From: a virus | Taxonomy: Duplodnaviria; Caudoviricetes | DNA length: 60,895 nucleotides | Virus record (IMG/VR): IMGVR_UViG_3300012936_000012 | Span: 1 to 60,895 of that record | Strand: one strand, 5' to 3' | Position numbers and translations under genes: made by a program | Part shown: piece by piece, positions 1,639-60,557 of the stretch | How the letters are laid out: each line of letters starts with the position of its first letter | Numbering within the stretch: position 1 is the stretch's first letter | Notes under the pieces: model-generated | Told to the model about the DNA's origin: nothing | The model's input: only the letters and a program-made list of their open reading frames with translations | Database searches by the model: none

Positions 1639-2424
1639 ATGGCCGACATTAACTCAGTTGTAAGAAGAGTGAGATCACGAGTCCATGACGTTGTGTCTCA
1701 AGACAATCGAGAGGACGGCAGGCCATTGTACTTGGATTCATACTACATTGATTCAATTGAGTCGGGTATGGGTCGGTTGAATTTAGACTTAGATTCAACA
1801 TATACAGTAGCATCTCTTCCAGTTAAGTATGAATACTTACTGGAACTAAGATCTACAGTTAACATGTGTTATGTTCGGGGAGGGGAAGGTGCATCGGGAG
1901 ATGTAGAGGACTTCCCCAACGTGCCAGATGCAATAGTGTCTGTTCCACAGTTGTCTGTACAAAGACAACAGATGCCATTAGAGGGGCCTAAATATTGGCT
2001 CAAGATGGCAGAGAAGCTAGACATGGAGTATCAGAACACTTTAGCTCGGTTGCAAGATCGAGGAGATGAGGGTCCTGAAATTCAACAATATGTAATGTCT
2101 AGGATGAGTCTAAGGACAGGCCGAAGGATGCCCTATGTTTATGATAAACCCATTACACCCCCTGACTTTTCAGTGGCAATTGTGGGTAATAGGGTTTCTT
2201 TGGGTTGGGGTATTGTTTATGATGAATATTTCAGACTGTATGAAGTTGAAAGAAGTACCAATAGTGACTTTTCAACAAAATCTGTCGTATTCACAACAAG
2301 TGATAATCAAGTTTCATCATTTAGTCAAAACCTTACTTCTGGTACATATCACTACAGATTAAAGATCACTAATTCTAATGATCTTTATTCTTACACTCAA
2401 TCTTCATCGGTAGTAGTACCATGA
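1639..2424 (+). CDS. Head-tail adaptor with C-terminal Ig/FN3-like domain
   Basis: Position after capsid; C-terminal VSLGW..F..YEVERS...SGTYHYRLK is FN3-like. Confidence 0.55.
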   Translation: MADINSVVRRVRSRVHDVVSQDNREDGRPLYLDSYYIDSIESGMGRLNLDLDSTYTVASLPVKYEYLLELRSTVNMCYVRGGEGASGDVEDFPNVPDAIVSVPQLSVQRQQMPLEGPKYWLKMAEKLDMEYQNTLARLQDRGDEGPEIQQYVMSRMSLRTGRRMPYVYDKPITPPDFSVAIVGNRVSLGWGIVYDEYFRLYEVERSTNSDFSTKSVVFTTSDNQVSSFSQNLTSGTYHYRLKITNSNDLYSYTQSSSVVVP

Positions 2425-2864
2425 AGAGTGTCTTAGATGTCGCAGAAAAGGGCGTAATAACAATTCATAAGACGTACGGTGAAATCGTGCGCCTTATGAA
2501 ATACATGCCTAGTGCAACGGGTGGCATCTACAAGCAAAGAAAAAGACTTTATGAAGCACCATATGAAATATTGGCTAAGGTCAATAGAGATCCAAACCCA
2601 GAACAAATAAGTAAAATTGGGGAATCCTCAGAGCGTAATGCTCATATAACATTACCTGTTCGTTTTTTAATTGATTTGTTTGGGAACTCCACACCTGTCA
2701 AAGAAACAATTACATCAAGTGATTTAATTGTATTTGACAATAGAGTATGGAGAATAACGACATGTGCATTTACTGGCAGAATCGGTGATCGACCTTTAAT
2801 AGTCGAACTTGAACTTAGAGAAAAACTAGGTGAAAAGGAGTCCGATTATTATGGCCGCAGTTAG
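2421..2864 (+). CDS. Head closure / neck protein
   Basis: Size, synteny and the SSDLIVFDNRVWRI motif typical of head-closure beta-barrels. Confidence 0.5.
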   Translation: MKSVLDVAEKGVITIHKTYGEIVRLMKYMPSATGGIYKQRKRLYEAPYEILAKVNRDPNPEQISKIGESSERNAHITLPVRFLIDLFGNSTPVKETITSSDLIVFDNRVWRITTCAFTGRIGDRPLIVELELREKLGEKESDYYGRS

Positions 2865-3459
2865 ATCATCTTTTCAGTATGAAGCTAGAGGACTTTTTTT
2901 TGGTGTTAAAATTAACCGTAGAGGTCCGAATTTTAAGAAAGCAATAAAAGGGGCCTTACCGTCAGGTAAAGAGTTCTTAGACGACATGTCTAAGCTTCTA
3001 AGGAACAGGATTGAATCAAGGCTTCCTCGTTTAAAACAAAACCTCAAAGATGGCTCTCCAGGGGCAATTGGTACAATTCAATTTGAATCGACTTCACACG
3101 GTAAACATAAACCGCACAAAGATATACCAAACCCGTTGAGTCTTATCATTGACCATGGAATGAAGTACAGGGTTCATGGTCGTTTAGGTCAAATAAAACT
3201 TGATGTGACGGTTTACAACTTAAGGAAACGCCAAATAAATTTTCATAAAAAAATGGGCAAAACCCCTAAGGTATCTACTGTTCTTAAACGATTTGATGAA
3301 ACTTGTCTTCCATACATAAAATCAGGTAATATGACAAAAATAGCAGACTATTGGACTGCAAACACTTTTCGTGCATTCAATCGTGATTTGAATCGGTATA
3401 TCAAAGACAAAAACCAAGCGTTCTTAGAATCGACAGATCAGTCCAAGGCAGGTGAGTAA
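2851..3459 (+). CDS. Basic neck/tail-completion region protein (hypothetical)
   Basis: ATG at 2851 after AGGAG; occupies the HK97 gp10-like slot. Confidence 0.4.
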   Translation: MAAVRSSFQYEARGLFFGVKINRRGPNFKKAIKGALPSGKEFLDDMSKLLRNRIESRLPRLKQNLKDGSPGAIGTIQFESTSHGKHKPHKDIPNPLSLIIDHGMKYRVHGRLGQIKLDVTVYNLRKRQINFHKKMGKTPKVSTVLKRFDETCLPYIKSGNMTKIADYWTANTFRAFNRDLNRYIKDKNQAFLESTDQSKAGE

Positions 3460-4175
3460 TGGCGGTTTCAATATATCAATTAGAAGACGCTTTAGCTAAA
3501 ACGTATGCGGGGAAGATTCTTAAAGATCGCAACGGCAGAGACAACTATGTTTCTGTTTTTTTAGATTACCCCGACATCGAAGAAGCTAATGAGCAAAGGT
3601 TTCCATCTATTTCACTAGTTTTAGTTAATATGATACCCGAAGTATCTATGTATGATAGTCAAGAGAAATATACTGTGAGCAAAAGAACAGACCTTGATGT
3701 ACCAGTGATTCAAGAAAGAAGAGTTCCAGAGTATTATAGATTAACATATGAGATTAATACTTATTCTCTTTCTGCATTTGAAGACAGAGAATTGATGCGA
3801 TGGGTTGAGTCTAGGTTTTCTCCAAGGGACAGTCTACTCGTTGGATCAGACTATTATCACTACTTTAGAGAATCATTTAGTGTAAATGATGATATTGATA
3901 TTGACACAGTAGTGTATAATAAGACCTGGACTATATCTGTTGTTGCAGATATTGAAGATACTGACAACGACCATTTAAATAAAGGTGTCAGAGAATTCAA
4001 GATATATTCTAATGTTGTTAAAACAAATTCTAAAATTATTCCTTCTGATGGTGAGAATGAAACAATATATAAACCCTACGCCCCAAAAGGTTCTGAGACT
4101 GCTTTGGGTGCAGAAAAAACAAGGCACAGAATCTTCTCATTTGATGATCAAAATTATTGGTTTCCTAAAAAGTGA
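3459..4175 (+). CDS. Tail terminator / completion protein (Pvc16/Afp16-like position)
   Basis: FPSISL and YRLTYEINTY motifs; directly upstream of the sheath gene. Confidence 0.55.
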   Translation: MAVSIYQLEDALAKTYAGKILKDRNGRDNYVSVFLDYPDIEEANEQRFPSISLVLVNMIPEVSMYDSQEKYTVSKRTDLDVPVIQERRVPEYYRLTYEINTYSLSAFEDRELMRWVESRFSPRDSLLVGSDYYHYFRESFSVNDDIDIDTVVYNKTWTISVVADIEDTDNDHLNKGVREFKIYSNVVKTNSKIIPSDGENETIYKPYAPKGSETALGAEKTRHRIFSFDDQNYWFPKK

Positions 4176-4183
4176 GGTAAACA

Positions 4184-6559: not shown

Positions 6560-6596
6560 GCAAAGATAGACTTTTCAACAAAATAAGGCAATAATA

Positions 6597-13991: not shown

Positions 13992-15344
13992 ATGATTCAA
14001 TACACAGATGAATATGAAACTAAATACAGAGATCGTTTTTTTGGTAAACGCAGAGCAATAGTTGAAAACAACAACGACCCGAACAAGCTAGGCAGAATAA
14101 AAGTTAAGAACCTAGAGTTGTTTGGCAATAGTGCTTCTGCGTGGGCTTCTCCATGTTTTCCTTTTTTTGGTGGACGAGACAGTGGATTCTTCTCTATACC
14201 TCCCGTTGGGTCTTGTGTTTGGATTGAATTCGAAGAGGGTCTATTAGATCACCCTGTCTACACAGGGGGGTATTTTCCTATGATTGATGATGGCCACAGT
14301 AGCGACGGTTCTCCGATTGAGGAATCTGAGGAATTTCAGTCTGCGGGGTCGTCTGTTCCTGCTCATGCAAGGGGTGAGTATGATGGGTCAGATTTTGGTG
14401 GCCTGAAAGGAAACTATGGTTTACCTCCTTCGGAATATGAGGGGGAATATGGAAAGGTGACTTTGCTACAGACTCCTGGGGGGCATATGTTAGAGTTTGA
14501 TGATACTGAAGGCGGAGAGCGTATACAAATTCATCATTCAAAAGGGGCGCATATAGAAATACTCCAAGATGGAAGCATTAATATTGTGTCTGAAGGAAAC
14601 TTAATTACGTATGCAGATAAAATATCAGAGACATCTGAAGGAGACAGGGAATCAAGTATAGGGGGCAACAATTCCTCAACCGTTAATGGTGACTTTTCAA
14701 CAACTGTTGATGGTGGAGAAAAAAAGAGTGTCCAGGGAGAAAGTGAAGTAGATGTTGGGTCTTTTTCATTCAAATCAAATTCAAACTCAACATATCAAAC
14801 TGATGGTGTGTTAAATATGAGTGCTTCAAATTTAATGAATGTGTCTTCCGGTGGAGATATTAATTTTGCTTGTTTAAGTGATATGTTTTTATCAAGTATA
14901 GGTGATTTTAGAGTTGTTAGCTTAAATACACTAGAACTACTATTACCAGGTGCGCCATACGTAAGCCCATCAGTTAATGTTATCGGTCAAAAAGGTACAA
15001 GTAGATTTGTGAGTGAAGATCCTTTGGGTGTCTCGGTTTATGGTATTGAAGCAAGAGGAGGGGTAGGTGGTCAAGTTTACATCGGAAATCTGGGAGATCC
15101 GTTTTCAACATCTAGTTTATCGGTTGGGCCGATACCTTTGGTTAAAGAACCAGTGGTAATGGGACTGCAGTTAGTTTCATATCTTACACAACTAAATGTT
15201 ATTCTTGGCACACTAGCATCGGGTTTAATTGCTACTCCTTTTTCTTCGGTGTCCGGGGCAGGAACATCTTTACTTACAGGTATCGGTGTACTAACCCCTC
15301 AAATTGCAACATTAAATACAACATCAGCTTTTGTGAGTCCATAA
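13992..15344 (+). CDS. Baseplate central spike (gp5/gpV/VgrG OB-fold plus beta-helix)
   Basis: NNDPNKLGRIKV, WASPC, GFFSIPPVGSCVWIEFEEG, TPGGHMLEFDDTEGGERI. Confidence 0.9.
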   Translation: MIQYTDEYETKYRDRFFGKRRAIVENNNDPNKLGRIKVKNLELFGNSASAWASPCFPFFGGRDSGFFSIPPVGSCVWIEFEEGLLDHPVYTGGYFPMIDDGHSSDGSPIEESEEFQSAGSSVPAHARGEYDGSDFGGLKGNYGLPPSEYEGEYGKVTLLQTPGGHMLEFDDTEGGERIQIHHSKGAHIEILQDGSINIVSEGNLITYADKISETSEGDRESSIGGNNSSTVNGDFSTTVDGGEKKSVQGESEVDVGSFSFKSNSNSTYQTDGVLNMSASNLMNVSSGGDINFACLSDMFLSSIGDFRVVSLNTLELLLPGAPYVSPSVNVIGQKGTSRFVSEDPLGVSVYGIEARGGVGGQVYIGNLGDPFSTSSLSVGPIPLVKEPVVMGLQLVSYLTQLNVILGTLASGLIATPFSSVSGAGTSLLTGIGVLTPQIATLNTTSAFVSP

Positions 15345-19415: not shown

Positions 19416-20851
19416 TGGCAACGCATGAACAGTGGCAGTTTTCTTTTGTTAAAGAAAAGGGAAGTGATGTACTGAATGTTCCTTCTTTAGGAGCAAAAGT
19501 ACCTTTGATTATTGAACAAAGCTCGTTGAACAATAATTCGGTACTTGATTTAAATCAACCAAGTACAGTTGTTAGTGGAGAGCATAATCGAGTTAGATAT
19601 GGGTTTCCATCAGATCCAGATGGTTTTACTTTAACTGGTAATGTAAAACTTCTGAAAAAAAAGAAAGAATTCCCTAGAAGCTCATTAGATGCTACTGCAG
19701 ACGTTGTCTTTTCAACAACTTTAACAGGAGATAGGGATGTTTACAAAGATTATGTAGACCATGAAAACTCTGAGAAACAAAATATTTGGTATTACACAAT
19801 CTTTTATGAACTAACAAGAGTTGCAGACGACACGAACATTTGGGCATATTCTTCTGTCCATGGGCATGACAGGGCGTTTGTTCTTACAAACGGTGAATCG
19901 ATTTACGGGAACAGATTATATAACTATTTGCCTGTAGGCATTCGACTGCTTGATGAGTCTGATGGTGATTTAACTATCAGTAAGATAGATCAAATAGTAG
20001 GTAAAGCACTTGACGAGTTTAAGCAAAAATTGGATCATTTCTCTAATACTAGATTTGATATAGCAAATGTTGATGCACATTTAATTCCTTATATTGATCA
20101 ACTTTTGGGGTGGCCAACAAATTTTGAGTTAAGTGAGCTAAGAAGAAGAAAAGAGACATCAAATGCAATCACACTTTGGAAGAAAAAGGGGACTTCTTTA
20201 AATATAGAGTTTGCTGCTCAAGTCCTGACTGGGTGGAACACAGAGCTTGTAGAAGGGTATAACTATGTTCTTACGACATATGGGGGTGAAGAGGTGTTTG
20301 ATCCAAATGTCCCTCCAAATGATTGGGTTGAAAGTACAGACGGGGTGTGGTCAGATTTGGTTAACAGCATACCTTTTAATGGAACAGTAGACTTAACTGA
20401 TCCTAACTCAGTTAGAATACAAGGTCGATCTACAGATAATTATCGAGTTATTGCAGAAAGTGAAAATCAGGGTTGGAGGAATCCTTATGGAGTCTTAGTT
20501 CAATTGATCTCACAAATAAATGATGAAGATCCCCTTATTTCTGACTTAGCTAGAGATAAGTTAAGACGATTGATTAGCTACCTCTTGATACATTATGCAA
20601 ACGCACACATACAAGTTGATGACTACAATTTAGAAAATTTTGTGTTATCATTTACGGAATCTCACGAGGATGATCTAAGAGTTCCTGACTCTTCAGAATT
20701 AGATATAGTTGAAACTATTACTACCTCTTGGAATGCACCTACTATTTACACTTATCCTCATCCAGATCCAAATATTACACTGGCACAAAACGGAACGTGG
20801 ATCAACGGAGTAAGTGAAATAGCAAGGCTTCCACACGTCGCCATAGGATAA
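19415..20851 (+). CDS. Baseplate/tail protein I (P2 gpI/gp7-like domain)
   Basis: LYNYLP, LIPYIDQLLGW, WKKKGT motifs. Confidence 0.75.
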   Translation: MATHEQWQFSFVKEKGSDVLNVPSLGAKVPLIIEQSSLNNNSVLDLNQPSTVVSGEHNRVRYGFPSDPDGFTLTGNVKLLKKKKEFPRSSLDATADVVFSTTLTGDRDVYKDYVDHENSEKQNIWYYTIFYELTRVADDTNIWAYSSVHGHDRAFVLTNGESIYGNRLYNYLPVGIRLLDESDGDLTISKIDQIVGKALDEFKQKLDHFSNTRFDIANVDAHLIPYIDQLLGWPTNFELSELRRRKETSNAITLWKKKGTSLNIEFAAQVLTGWNTELVEGYNYVLTTYGGEEVFDPNVPPNDWVESTDGVWSDLVNSIPFNGTVDLTDPNSVRIQGRSTDNYRVIAESENQGWRNPYGVLVQLISQINDEDPLISDLARDKLRRLISYLLIHYANAHIQVDDYNLENFVLSFTESHEDDLRVPDSSELDIVETITTSWNAPTIYTYPHPDPNITLAQNGTWINGVSEIARLPHVAIG

Positions 20852-27056: not shown

Positions 27057-27210
27057 AGATCATGTCATAGTTGTTGAAAAGTCAGAAATCATAGAACTTG
27101 AAGATGGATCATTTAAAGTATCCAAAGGTTGGATGCAAGAGCGTATGGCGTTTGAGCAAGAGCTTATGGATTCTCTTAATTATTGCTTACAAGGAACAAC
27201 TGAAAAATGA
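26932..27210 (+). CDS. Putative o-spanin (Rz1-like lipoprotein); true start may be an internal Met
   Basis: Signal peptide KMLLSLGVATTIG-C with lipobox-like Cys and Pro-rich linker; overlaps the previous ORF in another frame. Confidence 0.55.
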   Translation: MKSKISQMPSLTKMLLSLGVATTIGCGPYCEKPNRNNPKDPKDHVIVVEKSEIIELEDGSFKVSKGWMQERMAFEQELMDSLNYCLQGTTEK

Positions 27211-35635: not shown

Positions 35636-36020
35636 AAGAGTCAAAAGTTTTTGAAAAGTCACAATTTTGGTTGCATGTAAACGAATGTAGGATAGTCTTG
35701 AGAAGTGAATCAGAAAAAATAAAAAGCAGAGTTATCAACTTCAGGAAAACAAATGATTCTAATTATTTGTCTCCTGATATCATATATGTTTGCGTTGAAA
35801 ACTCTTATATGTTGAACAACTTAGATCTTGAAAAAGAATGGATTGTTTTAAAAGTCTTGTGTGGTCCCCGCCCCTACAAAATAGGGTCTTGGATACTAGA
35901 GTTTGAGTTCGATGGATTAGGGTTTTATAAAAAGAAACAATAAAATATATCTATAAAAATTATTGACAAACAATTACACATAAGACAAAACTCATGTTAA
36001 CTCAAACACGAGGAAATGAA

Positions 36021-37965: not shown

Positions 37966-38312
37966 TAAAAGGCAACTTATCCAATACTTTACCGATGACC
38001 CTATGGGTTCATTCTAATGTTCTTTTAGAAAGTAAAGGTAGAAGGTTTTTTGTCGGGCCAAAGAAATACATGTTGAAAAGACAGGATTGGCTATGGTCAA
38101 TAACTTATTTTGTAAAGCCTGTAATCATTTATATTAACGAATCTCCAAATTATTTACTCAGTGATTACGAATCAAAGCACTTTGAAACGATGCATTCTTG
38201 CATACACAACTTAAGACAAAGCAAAAGGGCAATTCACTTAATTGTAGATGACCCCATTTATTTAACAGACGACGTAGTTTTATTTGACTATGACATCAAA
38301 CGATATGGATAA
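37962..38312 (+). CDS. Hypothetical protein
   Basis: ATGA overlap with the upstream gene. Confidence 0.5.
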   Translation: MIKGNLSNTLPMTLWVHSNVLLESKGRRFFVGPKKYMLKRQDWLWSITYFVKPVIIYINESPNYLLSDYESKHFETMHSCIHNLRQSKRAIHLIVDDPIYLTDDVVLFDYDIKRYG

Positions 38313-43101: not shown

Positions 43102-44357
43102 AGGGTTGGGCTTTGCATCCTTTGTTCAATAAAGAAACAAAGGATGTATTGACTATAAACGACATGGAGTTGTTTACAAAACATCAAGGCAAATATTATG
43201 TGCCTCGTGGCTTCGAGCAATTTAAATATGTTGACTTTTCAACAACTATGCTTGGTGAAATGATGAATCCAATGATTGAGCCAATCAATCTTAGGGATTA
43301 TCAAGTTCCTGCAGTCAAAGCAGTGATTGAATACTTAGATGACCCACCTAAAGGAGCGATTCTTTTTGCACCTTGTGGCAAAGGAAAAACTGTCATGGGT
43401 TTAGAAATAGCTAGAAGACTAGGGCGTAAGGCTTTAGTGCTTGTCCATAAGGAATTCTTAGTAGACCAATGGATTGAACGCGCAAATACGTTCTTACCTC
43501 AAGCTAAAATCGGAGTTTGGCAAAGAGACACTGTACCTTCTGGTAAAGAGGATATTGTTATTGCTATGGTGCAGTCGATATGTAAAAGAGAGTATCCAAA
43601 GGAGATTTATGATTTATTTGGGACTGTCATTGCAGATGAAACACACAGATATGCCGCGCCAATGTGGCAGAAAGCTTTTGGGCGTTTCGATTCTGCATAT
43701 CGAGTAGGATTGACTGCTACACCTGAACGTAAAGATGGGATGCAGAAAGCTCTGTTTCTCCACATAGGGCCAATCGTATATGAGATGGAAGGACATAAGA
43801 GAATACCGACGATTTGGCGTATAAATACTGACTGCAGTATGAAAGTACCAAAACTTTGGAATGGAGACATAAATACTTCTAAAATGATCACAGACTTGTC
43901 TAAAATAGAAGACCGAACAGATCTTATTGTACGTATGACAAAAAGAGCTTTAACCAAAGGCCGCAAAATCCTTATTTTGAGCGAAAGAGTAGCTCACGTA
44001 AAAGAGATCAAGTCAATTTTGTCAAAAGATCTTCAAGAATCAGACTTTTCAGTTGATCTATACATCGGTGGTATGAATCAGAAAGCAAGAGATGAGTCTT
44101 CCAATGCAGATGTGATTGTAGGCACTTATGCAATGGCTCAAGAAGGATTAGATATTCCAGAATTAGACACGCTAATATTGGCAACACCAAAAACCTCAAT
44201 AACTCAATCAGTAGGTAGAATACTTCGAGATGCCCCAGACAAAAAAGACCCTGTTGTTTTAGACTTGGTAGACCCTAAAATCGGCATCTTAAACGCATAT
44301 TGGGGCGCTAGGAAAAAAACATATAATAAGTTGGGGTATCATATACTTATTAACTGA
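43098..44357 (+). CDS. Superfamily 2 DExH helicase (UvsW/XPB-like)
   Basis: LRDYQ, PCGKGKT, DETH, GLTATPER, EGLDIP, QSVGRILR. Confidence 0.9.
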   Translation: MKGWALHPLFNKETKDVLTINDMELFTKHQGKYYVPRGFEQFKYVDFSTTMLGEMMNPMIEPINLRDYQVPAVKAVIEYLDDPPKGAILFAPCGKGKTVMGLEIARRLGRKALVLVHKEFLVDQWIERANTFLPQAKIGVWQRDTVPSGKEDIVIAMVQSICKREYPKEIYDLFGTVIADETHRYAAPMWQKAFGRFDSAYRVGLTATPERKDGMQKALFLHIGPIVYEMEGHKRIPTIWRINTDCSMKVPKLWNGDINTSKMITDLSKIEDRTDLIVRMTKRALTKGRKILILSERVAHVKEIKSILSKDLQESDFSVDLYIGGMNQKARDESSNADVIVGTYAMAQEGLDIPELDTLILATPKTSITQSVGRILRDAPDKKDPVVLDLVDPKIGILNAYWGARKKTYNKLGYHILIN

Positions 44358-46687: not shown

Positions 46688-47079
46688 AGAAAACTTCTTT
46701 AGGAAGTAAAAAACCTAAGCCAAGTTTTTTTGAAGAGGTCAAGAAAGACAATAAGTCACGTTCTGCAAGGCACGAGAACAGGCTTCAAGGTGTTTTGAGA
46801 TCAAAGACAACCCCTAACAGTGGTGCTTTGCCAAATCTTTCTCAAAAAGGAGATCTACGAGATCAACTTTTTGTTTGGCAAGCTAAACTAACAGACAAAG
46901 ACCGATTTACAATCACTTCTGACGTGATTGTGGAACTGAAAAGACAAGCGTCATTAACTGGTAAGTGGCCTGGTATCTGTTTGACTATAGAGGGGTTGCC
47001 GAATCATGTTGAAAAGGATTGGGTATGTATACCCGCAAATATATTTGCAGAACTAATTGACAACTATAAGGATACATGA
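46684..47079 (+). CDS. Holliday junction resolvase-like PD-(D/E)xK nuclease
   Basis: HENR, TPNSGA, KGD, QAKLT. Confidence 0.65.
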   Translation: MKKTSLGSKKPKPSFFEEVKKDNKSRSARHENRLQGVLRSKTTPNSGALPNLSQKGDLRDQLFVWQAKLTDKDRFTITSDVIVELKRQASLTGKWPGICLTIEGLPNHVEKDWVCIPANIFAELIDNYKDT

Positions 47080-47086
47080 CAATAAT
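47057..47086 (+). promoter_or_regulatory. Candidate sigma70-type promoter upstream of parB
   Basis: TTGACA-N18-AATAAT, followed by a GTCTTTTCAACA copy at 47091. Confidence 0.4.
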
Positions 47087-47124
47087 CATTGTCTTTTCAA
47101 CAACTTCAAGACAAAGGATATGAC

Positions 47125-48006
47125 ATGGAAGTGAAAAAGATAAAGGTAAGCCAAATCGACCTCAACTTAATTACAAATTCCAGAGTTAATATTGATGTTG
47201 ATGATCTTGCAGAGAGTATTGCAACATCAGGGCTAAACAATCCTGTTGGAGTATGTCAGACTGTAGATGGCCGCTATGGTCTAGTTTATGGTTTTAGAAG
47301 ATTCAATGCAGTATCTCGATTGGGTTGGGATGAAATTGATTGCCGCGTTATGAGTGGATTAGATCAATCAGAACTTTTGATTATGAATCTACAAGAGAAT
47401 GTGAGTAGAAAGAACTTGAATCCTATGGAAGAGGCATTGGCAATTCAACGCATTCAAAATCTTGGCAGAGATGTAAATGAGTTTCGTAAAGAACTCGGTT
47501 GGTCTAAGACATTAATTAGTCAAAGATTAGCTTTACTTGAGATGTCTGAAGAAATTATTTACTCATTAAAAAACGATGATATCTCAGTCAATCAAGCGAG
47601 AGCAATAAATCAAGCTCCCGAAGATTTGCAAGAAGAGTTGATCGAATTAGCTAAGATCGGAACAACTGCTAAGTCTCTACGAGAAAAAGTAGACGAATTA
47701 CTAGAATATATTCCAGATGATGATGAAATATTGATTGACGACGACGATGATGTCGTTCAAAGATTATTTGAAGAAGAGAATGAGGTTGATAATGAAGTTT
47801 TGGCAAATTCAATAGCTTCTATGTTAACAAATTTTGGATCTTTATTTAAGAATGAAACTGGCTACTACAAGTTTAAGATTGCTATAAAATCCATTGATTT
47901 CACAGGCATGTCAAACGAAGATCTTAACTCACTTAATACTGCTTTAGAGCGCTTAACAGGACCAGACTGCTTGAATCTTTGGGGGGGCTTTAATGAGCCT
48001 CGATAA
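47125..48006 (+). CDS. parB: ParB/Spo0J-family protein (ParB-N plus HTH)
   Basis: LAESI..SGL.NPV, LVYGFRRF.A...LG, ENVSRKNLNPMEEA, HTH LGWSKTLISQRLALL; ATG 47125 after AAGGA. Confidence 0.85.
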   Translation: MEVKKIKVSQIDLNLITNSRVNIDVDDLAESIATSGLNNPVGVCQTVDGRYGLVYGFRRFNAVSRLGWDEIDCRVMSGLDQSELLIMNLQENVSRKNLNPMEEALAIQRIQNLGRDVNEFRKELGWSKTLISQRLALLEMSEEIIYSLKNDDISVNQARAINQAPEDLQEELIELAKIGTTAKSLREKVDELLEYIPDDDEILIDDDDDVVQRLFEEENEVDNEVLANSIASMLTNFGSLFKNETGYYKFKIAIKSIDFTGMSNEDLNSLNTALERLTGPDCLNLWGGFNEPR

Positions 48007-49573: not shown

Positions 49574-49579
49574 GTTGCC

Positions 49580-50707: not shown

Positions 50708-50738
50708 TTAATATGACTTTTCAACAAAAGGATAAGAC

Positions 50739-52127: not shown

Positions 52128-54048
52128 TTTCCCAAATCAGCTCGGTGAATTAGTATATTTAAGATCATACGCAAGATGGCTTCCAGAAGAAAAAAGACGA
52201 GAAAATTGGTCTGAAACAGTAGATCGTGTATACAAATTTTTAATTAAGCCTCAAAATATTGAGGAAACCTTAAAACTAGAGCTAAAAGAAGCAATTTTGA
52301 AACAAGAAGTAATGCCTTCGATGAGAGCCTTGTGGTCTTCAGGGGTATTTGCTACAACGGATAATACTGCTATTTACAATTGCTCGTTTATGCCAATTGA
52401 TAACTTAAAATCGTTCTCTGAACTGATCTACATTTTAATGCAAGGAACAGGTGTTGGTTTTTCAGTAGAGAAGAAGTTTGTAGACAACTTGCCAACGGTT
52501 TCTCCTTCAGTAGAAGTAGAAGAAGAATTAACAATTTATCAAGTCCAAGACTCCTCTGAAGGTTGGGCAGATGCAGTTTATTTTGCAGTCACTTCTGCGT
52601 TTAGAGGACATGCATTTGAAGTAGACTATTCCTTAGTTCGACCAAGAGGGTCAATACTTAAGACAAAAGGTGGACGAGCAAGTGGTCCTGAGCCTTTGAT
52701 TGCTGCAATCAATTTTATCAGAGAAACAATTCGTAATGCTTCGGGTCGAAAGCTAACATCAATTGAGTGTCACGATATTTGTTGTTCTCTTGCAGAGGTG
52801 GTCGTTGTTGGCGGGGTAAGACGGTCTGCAATGATCTCATTTAGTGATCCAGACGACACAGAGATGAGGCACGCAAAAGATTGGAAGAAAGCTTCATTTC
52901 CTTTGCGTAGATATATGTCAAACAACTCCGCATATTTTGCAGAGAAACCACCCAAAGAGGTTTTTGATCGAGAATGGAAACAATTAGCTGAATCGGGTTC
53001 AGGGGAACGAGGGTTGTCAATTGATAACTGGTGGAAGAAAGCAGTTAGACCAAAAGGCGAGGTAAGGTCAAACCCTTGCCATGAAATTGGTCTAAGATAC
53101 AGAGAGGCCGTTGATCCATGGACAGGTGAAGGTGGAGGTGGGCAGTTTTGCAATTTATCTGCAGTAGTGGTGCGATCCGAGGACACAAGAACTAGCCTGC
53201 TTCGTAAAGTGGAGCTTGCAACATGGCTAGGGTGTATCCAAGCCACGTTTACTAATTTCCCCTACCTTCGACCAACTTGGACAGACTTATGTAAAGAAGA
53301 CCGTTTGATTGGTGTTGACTTGACGGGGCAGTGTGATAACCCAGAATTAATGAATAACCTCGACTTCTTGTCAAGATTGAATGTTAGAGCAGTAATGACC
53401 TCAAAGAAAGCGGCAGAGGTTCTAGGCATAAATGAGCCTGCGGCAGTGACTTGTGGTAAGCCAAGTGGGAATACTTCTCAAATGCTAGACTGTGCAAGCG
53501 GATTCCATCCCCGCTATAGTAAATACTACTTTAGACATATTCGAGTAAGTGCAGATGATCCATTGTCGGATTTGTTGAAAAGTCAAGGAGTACCCATGTT
53601 TAAAGAGGTCGGCCAACAGGATTTGCCTTCTGAGCAAGTAAAAACTTGGGTTGCTCGCTTCCCTGTCGAATCTCCCGAAGGATGTATGACCAGGGATGAT
53701 GAGACTTCTTTTGATCAAATGGACAGATATCTGAACATTATGAATACATGGTGTCGATATAAGGGACACAATCAGTCGGCAACTATCTATGTTAAGAATG
53801 ATGATTGGGATAAAGTAGGCCAATGGGTGTGGGATAACTTCGATGACATTATTGGTTTGTCGTTTCTTCCATATGATGGAGGTAAATATCAACTTGCTCC
53901 TTATGAGGAGATAACACAAGAGCAATACGAAGAGGAAATTAAAACTTTCCCGAATATTGACTATACTAAGCTAAGTGATTTTGAAGAATATGATATGGGG
54001 GAAGGTAGTTTTGAAATAGCTTGTACCGGTGGAGCTTGTGAATTGTGA
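52117..54048 (+). CDS. nrdJ: Class II (B12-dependent) ribonucleotide reductase
   Basis: MPSMRAL, NCSF, GTGVGFS, GGVRRSA, NPCHEI, FCNLS, KPSGN, C-terminal CTGGAC; no beta subunit nearby. Confidence 0.9.
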   Translation: MMSDFPNQLGELVYLRSYARWLPEEKRRENWSETVDRVYKFLIKPQNIEETLKLELKEAILKQEVMPSMRALWSSGVFATTDNTAIYNCSFMPIDNLKSFSELIYILMQGTGVGFSVEKKFVDNLPTVSPSVEVEEELTIYQVQDSSEGWADAVYFAVTSAFRGHAFEVDYSLVRPRGSILKTKGGRASGPEPLIAAINFIRETIRNASGRKLTSIECHDICCSLAEVVVVGGVRRSAMISFSDPDDTEMRHAKDWKKASFPLRRYMSNNSAYFAEKPPKEVFDREWKQLAESGSGERGLSIDNWWKKAVRPKGEVRSNPCHEIGLRYREAVDPWTGEGGGGQFCNLSAVVVRSEDTRTSLLRKVELATWLGCIQATFTNFPYLRPTWTDLCKEDRLIGVDLTGQCDNPELMNNLDFLSRLNVRAVMTSKKAAEVLGINEPAAVTCGKPSGNTSQMLDCASGFHPRYSKYYFRHIRVSADDPLSDLLKSQGVPMFKEVGQQDLPSEQVKTWVARFPVESPEGCMTRDDETSFDQMDRYLNIMNTWCRYKGHNQSATIYVKNDDWDKVGQWVWDNFDDIIGLSFLPYDGGKYQLAPYEEITQEQYEEEIKTFPNIDYTKLSDFEEYDMGEGSFEIACTGGACEL

Positions 54049-54091
54049 TAAAATCAAACACGTTTCTAATCAATGCGTGTGAGATATAAAA

Positions 54092-55519: not shown

Positions 55520-56205
55520 TGAGAGTAGATATTTATGATGACAATATTGGTTGTGTTGAATTAATTGATTTCATGGGAGATGACCAACGGGCGGTGGCAA
55601 GTGCAAGGGTATCTTTAGCAAAAGATACTGAGACACTAGATCGTGATATGAATGAAAGAGACTTGAAGTTGATGCGTTTCTTAATTAGAGAGTATCACAC
55701 TTCTCCTTTTGAACATTCAACGGCAACGATGCGCATAGTTTGTCCTTTATTCTGTAGATCTCAAATTATGCGGCACAGGACATTTTCATTTAATGAAGTC
55801 AGTAGAAGGTATACTTCAGAGGATCTCAGATTTTATGTTCCAACTTTATTAAGAAAACAAGCCCAAAAAAATCTTCAGTGTTCAACAAACGAAGAGGTAG
55901 AAGATCCATCTCTTTATGATCTTTATGTGCAAAACACAAATTATGCTCTAGCTAACTATAATAAGTTGATTGAAGGAGGGGTGAGTCGAGAGCAGGCAAG
56001 AATGATTTTACCGCAGTCTATGTACACAACCTTTTGGATGACTGGCAATTTATTGAATTGGGTAAAATTTTTAAAATTAAGATTAGATGAACACACTCAA
56101 CATGAAACTAGGTCTGTTGCAAAAGGGGTTTATATGTGTTTGGCAAACGTATTTCCTTTAACAATGAGTGAGATGTTGAAAAGTCAAAAAGGAGTTATTT
56201 TATGA
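55519..56205 (+). CDS. thyX: Flavin-dependent thymidylate synthase
   Basis: HTSPFEH, QIMRHRTFSFNEVSRRY, EQARMILP, LRLDEHTQHE. Confidence 0.95.
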   Translation: MRVDIYDDNIGCVELIDFMGDDQRAVASARVSLAKDTETLDRDMNERDLKLMRFLIREYHTSPFEHSTATMRIVCPLFCRSQIMRHRTFSFNEVSRRYTSEDLRFYVPTLLRKQAQKNLQCSTNEEVEDPSLYDLYVQNTNYALANYNKLIEGGVSREQARMILPQSMYTTFWMTGNLLNWVKFLKLRLDEHTQHETRSVAKGVYMCLANVFPLTMSEMLKSQKGVIL

Positions 56206-56414: not shown

Positions 56415-56465
56415 TTAAACTGAGTTTTGATAACATCAAGTGTACATACAAACAATGGAGGCTGT

Positions 56466-57537: not shown

Positions 57538-57568
57538 AAGTTGTTGAAAAGACTTTTTTTATTTTTTT
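57536..57568. terminator. Weak candidate bidirectional terminator at the convergence point
   Basis: AAAAGTT-GTTGAAAA-GACTTTT followed by T runs, between convergent operons. Confidence 0.4.
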
Positions 57569-57801
57569 CGATAATGAAGTCCAAGTGCTTCTTTAAGTAT
57601 ATCTTCTTTATCTCTTGATATGTCTATATCAATAAAAAACTCAGAAAGGTTAATTCCAATTTCTGCTGCTTCAACTTGTATTTTTAGTTGTGCAGCAAAA
57701 GGTTGTCTTCCATCATAAATTTTGTTTAAAGAAGACCGAAGATATATCTCTAAATATTCTCCGTTTGTTGCACTAGAAACACTAGGTGTTGCCCAGTTTA
57801 C
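57559..57801 (-). CDS. -1 frame extension (80 codons) of the methyltransferase partner ORF
   Basis: After A10G the -1 frame reads VNWATPSVSSATNGEYLEIYLRSSLNKIYDGRQPFAAQLKIQVEAAEIG...HYRKK*. Confidence 0.6.
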   Translation of the reverse strand, partial: VNWATPSVSSATNGEYLEIYLRSSLNKIYDGRQPFAAQLKIQVEAAEIGINLSEFFIDIDISRDKEDILKEALGLHYRKK

Positions 57802-59474: not shown

Positions 59475-59478
59475 TCAT
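58333..59478 (-). CDS. DNA (cytosine-5)-methyltransferase catalytic subunit lacking motif IX
   Basis: SLCSGYGG (I), GGFPCQPFSQAG (IV), ENVEG (VI), PHQRKRVFI (VIII), LRMLGNGVVP (X). Confidence 0.9.
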   Translation of the reverse strand: MNVDITKKPSELTHISLCSGYGGIDLGFKRAGLPIRTVTYVEIETFVCQNLVAKMEKGWIDVAPIWTNLKTFNWGLFNGKVDILSGGFPCQPFSQAGRRDGSEDPRHLWPYIVEGIKQLGRPPIVFFENVEGIISSKLKGNTWADPEGTSVLHHVLKELERLGYEATAGVFSASEVGAPHQRKRVFILGVNSRLNKQGRDFITSKLSRGFRPILGDSEINDEQLWRAERVDKRGEVQEGVAVQTRQPGLPNERWVAYPAARGVGQYSWEPPRTVMGHTGKSGLEGEVPQTQSRKEPTKPTAGSSSHGVVCGEIESSLGGDLDGCTCGVDISELYTRTDNRTDELRMLGNGVVPGTATKAIRIMWKQLVNSDNNDNNRKQIC

Positions 59479-59488
59479 TGTAGTCCTT

Positions 59489-59968
59489 TCATGTAGTTTG
59501 TCTTAAGCGTTTTCTTGCTCTATATAAGCGTACTTTGTACGCAGATTCGGAAACCCCGATTTCTTTTGATGCTTTCTCAGCTTTGATGCCTTTAACAGCA
59601 TTAACAATTACATCTTTATCAAAATCATTAAGTTTATTAAAATTATCTATAACAGTATTAAGTTCGGTTTTGTCAATAAATTTCTTTTCTGGTGTTGAGT
59701 AATCAATTAGTTCTAGGTCGAAAAAGCGTGTTATTTGCTTATCTCTGTACGTATCTCTTCGTAGTTTTTCATTGCATAGGTTTTTTGCTATTTTATATAT
59801 CCAAGTACTTAATTTACACTTTTTTTTAAATTTATGAACATTTGCTAAAGCTAATACAAATACATCCTGTGTAAATTCTTCAGAAGTAAATCGATCATAA
59901 TACGGAGTAAAGATTGCCATGATTTTGTATTTTAGTTTTGGATACAAGGCTTCAATTTCTTTCTTCAC
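59489..59968 (-). CDS. ECF-type RNA polymerase sigma factor
   Basis: EEFTQDVF, LSTWIYKIAKN (region 2); EIGVSESAYKVRLYRARKRLR (region 4). Confidence 0.85.
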   Translation of the reverse strand: MKKEIEALYPKLKYKIMAIFTPYYDRFTSEEFTQDVFVLALANVHKFKKKCKLSTWIYKIAKNLCNEKLRRDTYRDKQITRFFDLELIDYSTPEKKFIDKTELNTVIDNFNKLNDFDKDVIVNAVKGIKAEKASKEIGVSESAYKVRLYRARKRLRQTT

Positions 59969-60557
59969 TTTTTTTTCCTTTTAAGGTTGTTGAAAAGTCT
60001 TTAACTATATTAAGAACACTATCTAAAATATTTTCTTTACTATCTGATCCATTTATCAATACAATTTCAACCCCTTTAGCTCCCATATCCTCAAGAAAAA
60101 GTTCATAGGCTACTTTTTGGCGCAACAGGAAACCATAGTTAACATCTTGATCAATATTTCCACGGGCTTTAACTCGACTCATAGCTTGCTCAGTTTCAAT
60201 ATCAAGAAAGAAGATCACATCAGGCAAAGGAGATGATTCAAGAAAAATTCGGCGTGCCTCTAAATAAAGGTCAAATTCAGAGCAAGAAAGATCACCATAA
60301 GAAAAACCAACTCTAGCAAACACACTATCAGACCAAACACTTCGATCATAAACATTGATCATACCAGGCAAAGAATCCCGCCATTGGTTATACCTAGACT
60401 TCAAAAACTTTATCTGAGTTAAAAACCCATTATCTACTTCACTTTCAAACATAATGGCCTCGTCAAAAACATTAAAATTTTCGGCGCACTGAAGACCTTT
60501 AACTAAACTACTTTTACCAACTCCCATAATCCCTTCCACACATATGCGAATTGTCAT
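59952..60557 (-). CDS. Deoxynucleoside kinase (dNK family)
   Basis: ICVEGIMGVGKSS, DRSVWSD.VF, PDVIFFLD, RVKARG; GGGAG RBS. Confidence 0.85.
   Translation of the reverse strand: MTIRICVEGIMGVGKSSLVKGLQCAENFNVFDEAIMFESEVDNGFLTQIKFLKSRYNQWRDSLPGMINVYDRSVWSDSVFARVGFSYGDLSCSEFDLYLEARRIFLESSPLPDVIFFLDIETEQAMSRVKARGNIDQDVNYGFLLRQKVAYELFLEDMGAKGVEIVLINGSDSKENILDSVLNIVKDFSTTLKGKKSEERN

What the first reader, a model, noticed from the sequence alone, without database searches (positions are those of the whole stretch)
2266..59999. Genome-wide non-palindromic 12-mer GWCTTTTCAACA(A), at least 14 copies on both strands: a parS-like, DnaA-box-like or Chi-like signal
Seen: exact copies at 2266, 6569, 14691, 19706, 34256, 43233, 47091, 50715 (+) and 27072, 38071, 53573, 56174, 57542, 59988 (-), with near-copies at 35649, about 47005 and about 15100. 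Twelve of the 14 extend to ...ACAA. A rough base-composition estimate gives well under 0.1 expected copies. Copies sit in intergenic DNA and inside genes in different frames (DFST, VFST, TFQQ, VEKS, MLKR, LLKS), so selection acts on the DNA, not the protein. Spacing is about 1.4-8 kb. The core TTTTCAACA is one mismatch from the DnaA box TTWTNCACA. Inference: a protein-loading code spread over the genome, for example for the phage ParB, initiator or MerR/XRE protein, for titrating host DnaA, or as a recombination or packaging signal.
Basis: partly seen in the sequence, partly recalled or inferred. Interest (0 to 1): 0.85.

Follow-up and report, generated by a model that had tools for sequence, protein, structure and literature searches.

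The report
Dispersed ParB-type binding word in phage
A marine tailed phage and its relatives carry a 13-14 base DNA word about every 4-5 kb, most likely the docking site of the phage's own ParB protein, which gives a testable job to an "orphan" phage ParB.

Summary
GWCTTTTCAACA occurs 14 times (8+, 6-) against 0.08 expected. About 11 copies are coding, where a codon-preserving null expects about 0.5.

The window is an uncultured marine myovirus contig, about 63% complete. Relatives with only 56% PolA identity keep the word: 16, 15 and 11 copies of the core against 0-1 for a reversed control.

Eight intragenic sites shared with the closest relative are 96/96 identical, while synonymous identity is 0.50-0.91. 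At least six positions are kept across sub-clades. Spacing is more even than random.

The word is not truly non-palindromic. A complete relative has AGTTTTCAAAAACT, with perfect 6-bp arms.

Every clade member has a copy 12-22 nt upstream of parB. In the window that copy starts 5 nt after the best sigma70-like promoter of 44-60.9 kb.

The ParB is a canonical Noc/Spo0J/KorB-type protein without ParA or integrase. The word variant changes together with ParB residue "201", a known specificity position.

Best reading (about 0.45): a genome-wide array of loading and operator sites for the orphan phage ParB. DnaA-box, Chi and phage-sigma readings are rejected. Binding itself is untested.

The parts
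2266..2277 (+). word copy GACTTTTCAACA inside gene 1639-2424 (reads DFST)
   Evidence: The position is kept in G002 and G003 at the same offset.
6569..6580 (+). word copy, intergenic, 16 nt upstream of the ATG at 6597 (gene after the tail-tube-like gene)
   Evidence: The position is kept in G002, G003 and G006.
14691..14702 (+). word copy inside gene 13992-15344
15102..15110 (+). weak copy, TTTTCAACA only
19706..19717 (+). word copy GTCTTTTCAACA inside gene 19415-20851
   Evidence: It is 12/12 identical in G001, where the 60 flanking nt are 0.67 identical.
27072..27083 (-). word copy, antisense, inside small gene 26932-27210
   Evidence: The position is kept in G001 and G003. A variant copy in G006 lies in the tblastn-matched region.
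34256..34267 (+). word copy inside gene 33651-35030
35649..35660 (-). one-mismatch copy GACTTTTCAAAA beside the origin-like region. The orthologous copy in G001 is exact.
38071..38082 (-). word copy, antisense, inside ORF 37962-38312
43233..43244 (+). word copy inside helicase gene 43098-44357
47007..47018 (-). weak copy (CTTTTCAACA core) in the 3' part of the Holliday-junction resolvase gene
47057..47086 (+). sigma70-like promoter TTGACA-18-AATAAT of parB. The word starts 5 nt after its -10 hexamer.
   Evidence: 11 of 12 matches, joint best of 40 hits in 44-60.9 kb. The -35 hexamer is kept in L160 and L161. It is a consensus match only.
47091..47102 (+). word copy at the predicted transcription start of parB, 22 nt before the ATG
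   Evidence: An equivalent copy stands upstream of parB in 9 of 9 clade loci whose upstream DNA is held.
47125..48006 (+). orphan ParB (ParB_N + HTH_ParB), the proposed reader
50715..50726 (+). word copy, intergenic, 12 nt before the ATG of the TGT/DpdA-like gene
53573..53584 (-). word copy, antisense, inside the class II RNR gene (reads LLKS)
   Evidence: It is kept in G001, G002 and G003 including the synonymous positions.
56174..56185 (-). word copy, antisense, in the last 32 nt of thyX, 16 nt before the ATG of the XRE gene at 56202
57542..57553 (-). word copy in the convergent intergenic gap 57538-57797
59988..59999 (-). word copy in the 3' end of the dNK gene, 19 nt before the GTG of the sigma-factor gene

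Best explanation
The word is the recognition site, parS- or operator-like, of the phage's own orphan ParB-family protein (47125-48006). This protein is a Noc/Spo0J/KorB-type CTP-switch DNA clamp.

The site is a degenerate 14-bp palindrome whose ancestral form is AGTTTT-CA-AAAACT. It is kept about every 4-5 kb along the genome, inside genes and between them.

One copy lies over the start of the parB promoter, so ParB probably represses its own gene. I infer that the other copies act as loading sites from which ParB clamps spread. That would coat or mark the whole phage chromosome for silencing of transcription, compaction or positioning of phage DNA, or shielding.

Shown: the word is real, it is selected at the DNA level, it is conserved and evenly spaced, it sits at the parB promoter, and it changes together with a ParB specificity residue.

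Inferred: that ParB binds it, that CTP-dependent spreading occurs, and what the coating does.
For: 1. The word is real and selected. There are 14 copies against 0.08 expected. The codon-preserving null leaves only the untouched intergenic copies. In 8 of 8 intragenic sites shared with G001, 96/96 bases are identical although synonymous identity is 0.50-0.91. The joint chance for the 32 third positions is about 2e-7.

2. The word is clade-wide. The core occurs 16, 15 and 11 times in G001-G003 against 0-1 for the reversed control, and 0 times in G004 and G005, which have about 30% PolA identity.

3. The word drifts in concert within each genome. The forms are TGWCTTTTCAACAA (G000/G001), A(C/G)TTTTCAACAACT (G002/G003), AGTTTTCAAAAACT (G006, L164) and AGTTTCCAAAAACT (L163, L168). 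This fits a phage-encoded reader. G006's form has perfect 6-bp arms, as sites of dimeric HTH proteins do.

4. A copy lies 12-22 nt upstream of the parB start in 9 of 9 clade loci whose upstream DNA is held: G000, G001/L161, G002, G003/L167, G006/L162, L160, L163, L164, L165 and L169, counting duplicates once. In the window it begins 5 nt after the -10 of the joint-best sigma70-like promoter of 44-60.9 kb.

5. The protein is a canonical ParB: ParB_N 3.5e-9 and HTH_ParB 2.1e-11. It has GFRR and ENVSR..L.PMEE boxes. The closest solved relatives are Noc (1.9e-23), Spo0J, ParB and KorB. HTH_ParB is found in the 4 word-bearing genomes scanned (G000-G003) and is absent from word-less G004. G006's ParB was found by the ParB alignment scan and tblastn.

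6. There is no ParA (PF13614) and no tyrosine integrase in complete G006 or in the others. The protein is therefore an orphan like Noc or KorB, which use many dispersed sites.

7. Covariation. Aligned to Noc and read against Jalal 2020 (passages), the helix ISV-x-QARAI is invariant except at x, which is position 201, one of four specificity residues.
   - N: six loci, which represent four distinct phages.
   - M: one locus, L165. Both N and M go with CAACAAC sites.
   - S: L163 and L168, which go with TTTCC...AAAAAC.
   - G (L164) or R (G006): these go with TTTTCAAAAAC.

8. Spacing is even. The gap CV is 0.45-0.50 with P 0.0004-0.0065 in 4 of 5 genomes. The phage sigma and XRE are excluded as conserved readers.
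Against: - No binding was tested.
- The covariation rests on two or three changes inside one clade, and kinship alone could give it.
- L165 has M201 with a C-type site, so there is no one-to-one code.
- G006's changes in that helix (3 of 9 residues) are only mildly unusual. The rate of G006-specific change is 7.4% over all proteins and 13% in ParB. My rough binomial from those rates, not run in a call, gives about 0.02 to 0.1.
- A symmetric dimer does not explain why the same asymmetry is kept in every copy: the centre CA, C at the tenth base, and the flanking TG in G000.
- In G002, G003 and G006 an extra one-sided element, (A)CTA 5-6 bp upstream and often CTAtAAAt, accompanies most copies. 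In G006 8 of 12 copies are intergenic, which suits a promoter-linked element.
- The half-sites are one base closer to the centre than in parS, so mapping residue 201 onto a particular base is uncertain.
- Box II has F where canonical ParBs have E (GFRR against GERR; the canonical form is recalled), so CTP hydrolysis may differ.
- Other conserved small proteins of the replication module have not been excluded as readers.
Confidence: 0.45

Rival explanations
1. The word is the operator of another phage-encoded DNA-binding protein, not ParB. This would be a genome-wide regulator like the P1 C1 repressor or the L5 'stoperator' repressor. Candidates are the MerR/HTH_17 protein (44799-45356), the DnaD-like initiator, or an unannotated small protein.
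For: The word is asymmetric and strictly kept, as sites of monomeric readers are. It overlaps transcription starts at some promoters. Several conserved small proteins of unknown function lie in the same module. The ultra-conserved P0002 (86-94% identity) lies directly upstream of one copy.
Against: The MerR-like protein is only 28-33% identical across genomes that share the word. The sigma factor and XRE are absent from complete G006. P0002 has no DNA-binding fold match (best PDB E 1.2), and its family is far wider than the word. Orientation does not follow transcription, with 41 sense and 31 antisense of 72 sites, unlike stoperators as described in PMC4351075. Even spacing and mid-gene sites are not expected of a promoter regulator.
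Confidence: 0.22
2. The word is part of a phage-specific promoter, covering the region around the transcription start, for a middle or late gene class. The copies would be promoters.
For: In G006 nearly every copy follows CTAtAAAt. This resembles the T4 late-promoter element TATAAATA (the T4 consensus is recalled). Eight of 12 copies are intergenic, several 12-22 nt before a start codon. In the window 5 of 14 copies lie 12-22 nt upstream of a start codon. Regular spacing would also suit operon starts.
Against: In the window and in G001 most copies are mid-gene and lack any upstream -10-like element: TANNNT is found near 2 of 16 and 4 of 18 sites, against a background of 0.11. 31 of 72 copies point against the local genes, including copies that abut a Shine-Dalgarno sequence in reverse. 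Only 3 of 15 intergenic gaps of 20 nt or more in the window hold the word. The only sigma factor found is absent from G002, G003 and complete G006. A near-palindrome gives no direction.
Confidence: 0.12
3. The word marks the few places where the TGT/DpdA-like enzyme (50739-52127) or another enzyme modifies, nicks or cuts the DNA. This could mean site-specific 7-deazaguanine insertion, or breaks that start recombination-dependent replication.
For: A TGT/DpdA-like gene is present (phrog_887, 1.9e-26) and is kept in all five genomes. One copy lies 12 nt before its start codon. parB overlaps a PD-(D/E)XK nuclease gene and follows recA and a resolvase gene. Even spacing suits multiple initiation sites.
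Against: There is no direct evidence of modification or nicks. From recall, the DpdA target motifs reported in phages are 2-3 nt long. No Pfam TGT match was found. A mark placed only about once per 4 kb could not shield the DNA from restriction.
Confidence: 0.06
4. The word is read by a host factor: a DnaA box that titrates DnaA, a Chi-like site for the host recombination nuclease, an IHF site or an uptake sequence.
For: TTTTCAACA is one mismatch from TTWTNCACA, and TTTCAACAACTTR is one mismatch from the IHF consensus (by inspection; both consensus sequences are recalled).
Against: The mismatch falls on the C that I recall as invariant in DnaA boxes. Relatives drift further to TTTTCAAAA or TTTCCAAAA. 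Flanking positions outside those motifs are conserved. The window's copies do not keep the IHF TTR part. There is no strand polarity in the complete relative. The word changes between related phages in step with a phage protein, across genomes of 38-45% G+C.
Confidence: 0.03

Closest known systems
KorB and its OB operators on plasmid RK2 (ParB-family CTP clamp acting as a global repressor)
   Same: Both are ParB-family proteins with N-terminal CTP-fold boxes and an HTH. KorB is among the solved relatives found (8qa8, 5.6e-15). In both, one short site is repeated at many dispersed places on a replicon of roughly 60-90 kb, some copies at promoters and some far from them, and the protein's own gene is probably autoregulated.
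   Different: From recall, OB is a perfect palindrome present 12 times, KorB works with KorA/TrbA and with the ParA-type IncC, and RK2 is a plasmid. Here the replicon is an apparently virulent phage. No ParA was found. The site is a skewed palindrome, many copies lie inside genes, and no partner is known. Of the KorB papers I saw only search listings and abstract starts.
Noc and its NBS sites in Bacillus (orphan ParB paralogue)
   Same: Noc is the closest solved relative (7ng0, 1.9e-23). It is an orphan without ParA. It uses palindromic sites scattered over a whole chromosome, inside genes too, rather than one centromere cluster. Specificity is set partly by residue 201 (PMC7383237, passages).
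   Different: Noc tethers DNA to the membrane through an N-terminal helix and acts in cell division (abstract listing of PMC8429893). The phage protein starts directly at the ParB_N domain, and no membrane helix was tested. The word is 14 bp, against 16 bp for NBS.
17-bp repeat TGTTCGGNNNCCGAACA of Cluster O mycobacteriophages (Corndog)
   Same: Both are invariant short inverted repeats spread through an apparently non-temperate phage genome, between and inside genes, and not tied to the direction of transcription. Corndog has more than 30 copies and an asymmetric centre. It has no integrase or parAB but has a ParB-like protein. The function is unknown and a dimeric binder is predicted (PMC4351075, passages). 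I counted 9 copies in 12 kb of Corndog.
   Different: Corndog gp90 has only the ParB_N domain, and no HTH_ParB was found. The authors did not link it to the repeat. The repeat is denser there, and the sequence and host are unrelated. Here the ParB is canonical and covaries with the word.
Stoperators of Cluster A mycobacteriophages (L5 gp71) and dispersed C1 operators of phage P1
   Same: Both are asymmetric 13-17 bp sites for one phage protein, repeated many times over the whole genome, partly outside promoters.
   Different: Stoperators are oriented with transcription (PMC4351075 discussion). Here 41 sites are sense and 31 antisense. Both systems belong to temperate phages and use immunity repressors, not ParB. 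The details of P1 and L5 are recalled and come from no call.
Chromosomal and plasmid parS centromeres (ParABS), including the dispersed sites of prophage N15
   Same: These are palindromic ParB sites that can lie inside genes and near parB itself.
   Different: They need ParA and serve segregation. They are few or clustered near the origin. No ParA and no ParA-binding N-terminal motif is present here (motif definition from PMC12704722). N15 is recalled.

Membership tests
ParB/Noc/KorB family (the proposed reader, 47125-48006) | N-terminal ParB CTP-binding fold with Box II (GxRR) and Box III (ENxxRxxLxPxEE) | tested here: met
   ParB_N scores 3.5e-9. GFRRFNA and ENVSRKNLNPMEE are kept in all clade members. 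Box II has F where canonical proteins have E (the canonical form is recalled).
ParB/Noc/KorB family (the proposed reader, 47125-48006) | Central helix-turn-helix DNA-binding domain | tested here: met
   HTH_ParB scores 2.1e-11. The profile matches Noc, Spo0J, ParB and KorB structures over residues 23-193.
ParB/Noc/KorB family (the proposed reader, 47125-48006) | C-terminal dimerisation domain | tested here: inconclusive
   No Pfam family covers residues of about 200-293. The region is conserved within the clade.
ParB/Noc/KorB family (the proposed reader, 47125-48006) | Sequence-specific binding to a cognate palindromic site, then CTP-dependent clamp closure and spreading | not testable with these tools
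   Only indirect evidence exists: the position at the parB promoter and the covariation.
ParABS partition system | A ParA ATPase partner and a ParA-binding motif at the ParB N-terminus | tested here: not met
   PF13614 has no match in G000, G002, G003 or complete G006, while the control rings in 14 of 14 genomes. The protein starts at the ParB_N domain without an LG(K/R)GL-type motif (motif from PMC12704722). Only one ParA family model was searched.
parS/NBS/OB-type site (the word itself) | Dyad symmetry of 13-16 bp | tested here: inconclusive
   G006, L164: arms AGTTTT/AAAACT match 6 of 6 around the centre CA. In the window only 4 of 7 mirrored pairs match, and the asymmetry is kept in every copy.
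parS/NBS/OB-type site (the word itself) | A copy at or near the ParB gene or its promoter | tested here: met
   9 of 9 clade loci with upstream DNA have a copy. In the window it begins 5 nt after the -10 hexamer.
Stoperator (Cluster A mycobacteriophages) | Asymmetric site oriented with the direction of transcription, in a temperate phage with an immunity repressor | tested here: not met
   41 sites are sense and 31 antisense of 72. No integrase was found. The definition comes from PMC4351075.
DnaA box | TTWTNCACA with invariant C at position 6, clustered at an origin | tested here: not met
Every copy has A at position 6. Relatives have TTTTCAAAA. The copies are evenly spread, not clustered.
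Chi-like polar recombination signal | A short host-specific word with strand polarity relative to DNA ends or the replication direction | tested here: not met
   The strand pattern in complete G006 is +---++---+-+. The word is a near-palindrome and changes between related phages.
Promoter of a phage-encoded sigma factor | Co-occurrence with the sigma gene, and orientation towards the genes downstream | tested here: not met
   Sigma70_r2 is found only in G000 and G001. It is absent from G002, G003 and, by tblastn, complete G006. Orientation is mixed.

The most novel reading that the evidence does not exclude
An apparently virulent marine myovirus clade uses an orphan CTP-switch ParB together with a 'carpet' of about one loading site every 4-5 kb. 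Selection keeps these sites even at synonymous positions inside structural genes. The purpose would be to coat its entire chromosome with sliding clamps. This would be a self-marking system that tells phage DNA from host DNA, or silences, compacts or shields it during infection. The site and ParB residue 201 would co-diversify between sister phages, giving each lineage a private code.
Probability: 0.3. Interest if true: 0.8.

Novelty: new variant of a known kind. Interest (0 to 1): 0.68.

Why it matters
Orphan ParB-fold proteins are common in phages and other mobile elements, but nothing is known of what those with the canonical architecture do there (PMC12704722, passages). Dispersed invariant repeats in lytic phages such as Corndog have stood unexplained since 2015 (PMC4351075).

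This clade offers a concrete pair to test. It has a canonical ParB, a defined 14-bp site with three natural variants, and a single candidate specificity residue. The experiments are therefore simple.

If the reading holds, it would extend ParB/KorB-type CTP clamps from segregation and plasmid regulation to whole-genome marking in virulent phages. It would also give a natural example of the specificity of a site and its reader evolving together.

If ParB does not bind, the word is still a strongly selected, evenly spaced genome signal of unknown function in an uncultured marine phage group.

Tried and rejected
- A megablast of 25 kb against isolate phages found no match. By protein, the best isolate PolA is 36% identical or less, so there is no cultured relative and no host.
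It was uninformative.
- A literature search for the word and its complement listed 20 of 29 papers. None of those 20 titles concerns phages or microbes, and the full texts were not opened. Three searches for phage ParB with dispersed sites found no description of this system. Supplements were closed and not seen.
- The window has no tRNA genes.
- Sequencing runs: only marine or estuary DNA holders were listed, and no RNA holder. Laying contigs of 4 runs on 40896-60895 gave no usable view of the sites, because the table of differences was cut (1954 rows not shown) and contigs cannot show transcript ends.
- A homodimer prediction for the ParB C-terminal part (residues 196-293, two copies) gave no answer, with scores 0.09 and 0.02 against a mark of 0.42. 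This is neither for nor against dimerisation.
- P0002 (50330-50707) was examined as an alternative reader. It has no PDB sequence match. Its atlas neighbours are unnamed viral clusters. It has 275 homologues, and every source name among the 120 listed reads hypothetical or uncharacterized. The model is confident and all-helical (pLDDT 88.4), but the best PDB fold match has E 1.2. No function could be assigned.
- The phage sigma and XRE were rejected as readers.
- A SpoIIID-like reader was considered from a PHROG label. The protein is SpoVS-like instead.
- IHF, DnaA, Chi, primase-site and intrinsic-terminator readings were considered by inspection and dropped. The reasons are given under the rivals.
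- Corndog gp90 was checked as a possible common reader type. It has ParB_N only and no HTH_ParB.
- Host-genome enrichment was not tested because the host is unknown. The single genome-contig scan was not spent, since a 14-16-mer would give hundreds of chance rows.
- The test for a -10-like hexamer used TANNNT. It therefore missed the CTAtAAAt element of G006, which is described from the listed sequences instead.
I added it and sent the same report again.

Full report
What the window is.
The window is the whole of one IMG/VR viral record, 60,895 bp, with no end repeats and a CheckV completeness estimate of 63%. G+C is 36-39%. My simple ORF-based gene call places nearly all genes on the + strand up to 57.5 kb, covering 97.6% of the sequence.

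Pfam and PHROG matches give a contractile-tailed phage. It has a capsid gene at 304-1290, a sheath gene at 4184-6055 and a tape-measure-like gene at 7568-10840. A replication and recombination block follows:
- DnaD-like initiator, 36239
- DnaC-like loader, 37342
- DnaB helicase, 38316
- primase, 39542
- PolA, 41260-43101
- SF2 helicase, 43098
- MerR/HTH_17 protein, 44799
- RecA, 45569
- Holliday-junction resolvase, 46663
- ParB, 47125-48006
- PD-(D/E)XK nuclease, 47993
- SpoVS-like protein, 49301
- TGT/DpdA-like protein, 50739
- class II RNR, 52093
- SbcD-like exonuclease, 54092
- ThyX, 55483
- small XRE protein, 56202
- PhoH, 56427
- on the - strand, a small sigma factor at 59489-59968 and a deoxynucleoside kinase

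No isolate phage is close: megablast found nothing, and the best isolate PolA is 36% identical or less. The runs that hold the sequence are marine and estuary metagenomes.

The observation.
The expected count is 0.08, and none of 100 shuffles exceeds 1. The word heads the list of strand-collapsed 10- to 14-mers.

The consensus is sharp. Beyond the 14 copies there is one single-mismatch copy (35649) and two core-only copies (47007, 15102). Over the window and its closest relative the logo is T-G-W-C-TTTTCAACA-A-c-T.

A shuffle that permutes synonymous codons and keeps every protein leaves 3.47 copies on average (max 6 of 300). These are essentially the intergenic copies it cannot touch. So about 11 coding copies stand against about half a copy expected.

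Conservation.
PolA found three relatives among viral contigs: G001 (79% identity), G002 and G003 (56%). The 10-base core occurs 16, 15 and 11 times in them, against 0-1 for the reversed word. It does not occur in two more distant phages.

Eight intragenic sites are shared by the window and G001. All 96 word positions are identical, while synonymous third positions in the same genes are only 0.50-0.91 identical. The joint chance for the 32 third positions is about 2e-7.

At least six sites sit at orthologous positions across sub-clades:
- inside gene 1639-2424
- between the tube-like gene and the next gene
- inside small gene 26932-27210
- upstream of parB
- inside the RNR gene
- at the 3' end of the kinase gene

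Other sites have been gained or lost.

Distribution.
The gaps between copies are more even than random. The CV is 0.45-0.50 with P 0.0004-0.0065 in four genomes, and P is 0.07 in G001. These genomes share ancestry, so the tests are not independent.

Orientation does not follow the genes. Of 72 TTTTCAACA sites in four genomes, 41 are sense and 31 antisense. There is no strand polarity along the complete relative.

In the window 5 of 14 copies lie 12-22 nt before a start codon, one of them in reverse orientation. However, only 3 of the 15 intergenic gaps of 20 nt or more hold the word. It is therefore not the general promoter or ribosome signal of this phage. I read the excess near gene starts mainly as placement where coding constraint is least. 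That is an inference.

The word is a skewed palindrome that evolves.
An alignment of the four ParBs found a fifth phage, G006: 84,945 bp, direct terminal repeats, rated complete, and syntenic with the window. It has only 2 copies of TTTTCAACA, but about 12 copies of AGTTTTCAAAAACT or one-off variants. The arms AGTTTT and AAAACT are perfect inverted repeats around a CA centre.

G002 and G003 have A(C/G)TTTTCAACAACT. Metagenome loci L163 and L168 have AGTTTCCAAAAACT, and L164 has the G006 form.

So the window's 'non-palindromic' word is one drifted version of a 14-bp dyad, and all copies within a genome drift together. That is what one expects if a factor encoded by the phage reads them. It is hard to reconcile with a host word, since these phages range from 38 to 45% G+C.

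In G002, G003 and G006 most copies also carry a one-sided element, (A)CTA 5-6 bp upstream. In G006 this is usually CTAtAAAt. The window lacks it and has TG directly before the core instead.

Who reads it.
The sigma factor and the XRE protein occur only in the window and G001. They are absent from G002 and G003, and by tblastn from complete G006. The MerR-like protein is 28-33% identical across genomes that share the word.

ParB is a different case.
- It has ParB_N and HTH_ParB domains and the boxes GFRR and ENVSR..L.PMEE.
- Its closest solved relatives are Noc (1.9e-23), Spo0J, Caulobacter ParB and KorB.
- HTH_ParB was found in G000-G003 and not in word-less, complete G004. G006's ParB was found by the alignment scan and tblastn.
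- No ParA (PF13614) and no tyrosine integrase were found, even in complete G006. It is therefore an orphan, as Noc and many ParBs of mobile elements are (PMC12704722, passages).

Every clade locus that includes DNA upstream of parB has a copy 12-22 nt before the start codon. In the window this copy begins 5 nt after the -10 hexamer of TTGACA-18-AATAAT. That is the joint-best sigma70-like match of 40 in 44-60.9 kb, and its -35 hexamer is kept in L160 and L161. The promoter scan as a whole is not above chance (40 found, 45 expected), so this is a consensus match only.

Covariation.
I aligned the phage ParBs to Noc and used the numbering of Jalal et al. 2020 (PMC7383237, passages read). In that paper four residues (173, 179, 184, 201) set parS-versus-NBS specificity, and residue 201 contacts a base pair near the dyad centre.

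The phage helix is ISV-x-QARAI with x at position 201. Its neighbours are invariant in all members except G006. The values of x are:

| x at 201 | Loci | Site type |
|---|---|---|
| N | window, L160, G001/L161, G002, G003/L167 | CAACAAC |
| M | L165 | CAACAAC |
| S | L163, L168 | TTTCC...AAAAAC |
| G | L164 | TTTTCAAAAAC |
| R | G006, which also has R204N | TTTTCAAAAAC |

The bases that differ between word variants are the second and third from the centre, roughly where residue 201 reaches in the solved complexes. L175 against I175 in the recognition helix splits the same way.

This is the most specific evidence for ParB, and it is limited:
- It rests on two or three changes within one clade.
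- M201 shows there is no simple code.
- G006-specific changes are only mildly enriched in this helix: 3 of 9 residues, against 7.4% over all proteins and 13% in ParB.
- The half-sites are one base closer together than in parS, so the base-to-residue mapping is approximate.

How it most likely works.
About 0.12 remains for readings not listed.

Under the ParB reading, dimers nucleate at each copy. At the parB promoter this blocks initiation, giving negative feedback. Elsewhere, by analogy with ParB, Noc and KorB, CTP-bound clamps would close and slide away. With a site every 4-5 kb they would cover the whole genome.

What that coverage achieves is open. It could be silencing at a distance as with KorB, gathering of phage DNA into one body, or shielding. 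I rank none of these above the others. The adjacency of parB to recA, a resolvase and a PD-(D/E)XK nuclease hints at a link with recombination-dependent replication, but nothing tests this.

The asymmetry kept in every copy, and the one-sided CTA element in the sister sub-clade, are not explained by a symmetric dimer. They are the main reasons for keeping the rivals alive.

Comparison with what is known.
The closest mechanistic models are KorB with its dispersed operators on RK2 and Noc with its scattered NBS sites.

The closest phage precedent is the unexplained 17-bp inverted repeat of Cluster O mycobacteriophages. It has more than 30 copies, shows no orientation rule, and occurs in phages with no integrase or parAB but with a ParB-like protein (PMC4351075, passages). 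I confirmed 9 copies in 12 kb of Corndog. I also found that its gp90 has only the ParB_N domain, so the parallel is in the pattern, not in the protein.

Stoperators differ by their strict orientation. The phage ParB partners of thymine dioxygenases lack a DNA-binding domain (PMC13229309, abstract). They form a different subclass from this ParB, and my scans returned no dioxygenase family.

I found no paper describing this word or a dispersed-site orphan ParB in a virulent phage. Supplements were not available.

Verdict.
It is partly wrong on the non-palindromic, DnaA and Chi points. I class the finding as a new variant of a known kind, namely dispersed ParB/KorB/Noc-type sites in a new setting.

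Noticed in passing
window 35526-35644: Origin-like region just upstream of the replication genes. G+C-rich inverted arms (CACGTACGTGTACGTG and CACGCGCGTGTACGTG) flank a roughly 60-nt A+T-rich stretch. The orthologous gap in G001 also holds ACGTG-rich repeats. A word copy, degenerate in the window and exact in G001, lies at its edge.
   Followed up: partly
window 35111-35150: A perfect 13-bp stem with a 6-nt loop followed by a T run, at the end of the structural gene block. It is a likely strong terminator. It also means the ORF listed from a GTG at 35108 probably starts later.
   Followed up: no
window 50330-50707 (P0002): A basic 125-aa protein that is 86-94% identical across genomes whose PolA is 56% identical, the most conserved protein of the clade. 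It has 275 homologues, and every source name among the 120 listed reads hypothetical or uncharacterized. The model is confident and all-helical (pLDDT 88.4) with no PDB fold match (best E 1.2). It may be a new fold of unknown function.
   Followed up: yes
window 50739-52127: A 462-aa protein that matches the PHROG for queuine tRNA-ribosyltransferase (phrog_887, 1.9e-26) but no Pfam TGT model. It may be a DpdA-like DNA transglycosylase, which would imply 7-deazaguanine in the phage DNA. No preQ0 synthesis family appeared among the roughly 50 window ORFs I scanned.
   Followed up: partly
window 53585-53610 (inside RNR gene 52093-54048): Directly after the antisense word copy comes AAGGAG-N5-ATG, in frame with the RNR. 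An equivalent SD-like sequence plus ATG is kept in G001-G003 (protein LLKSQGVPMF). It may be an internal start giving a roughly 150-aa C-terminal product, or simply protein conservation.
   Followed up: no
window 59489-59968(-) and 56202-56414(+): A small two-domain sigma factor (regions 2 and 4) and a 70-aa XRE protein occur only in the window and G001. They are absent from G002 and G003 and, by tblastn, from complete G006. This looks like a sub-clade-specific regulatory add-on.
   Followed up: partly
window 33590-33650; G001 30690-30728 and 32888-32986: A second conserved non-coding element, CTTTCTTAACCATACATTGCAATAAGGAG, stands before the gene at 33651. Two copies occur in G001, and a shorter echo stands before the capsid gene (260-303). 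It may be a late-gene leader or promoter.
   Followed up: no
G002 32848-32922 and 73086-73168; G003 40054-40127 and 55376-55543: Long A+T-rich palindromes of the type GCTCTTATATATATAG...CTATATATAAGAGC recur in intergenic gaps of the sister sub-clade. G003 also has tandem AATCTATCGATAAA units at 55376. Their function is unknown.
   Followed up: no
G002 and G003, whole contigs: AGGACCACAAGG occurs 9 and 11 times. It probably comes from a collagen-like Gly-Pro-Gln coding repeat rather than from a DNA signal.
   Followed up: no
window 49301-49573: A SpoVS-family protein (1.3e-19) lies in the replication module and is 72-88% conserved in the clade. This is unusual for a marine phage, and its role is unknown.
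   Followed up: no
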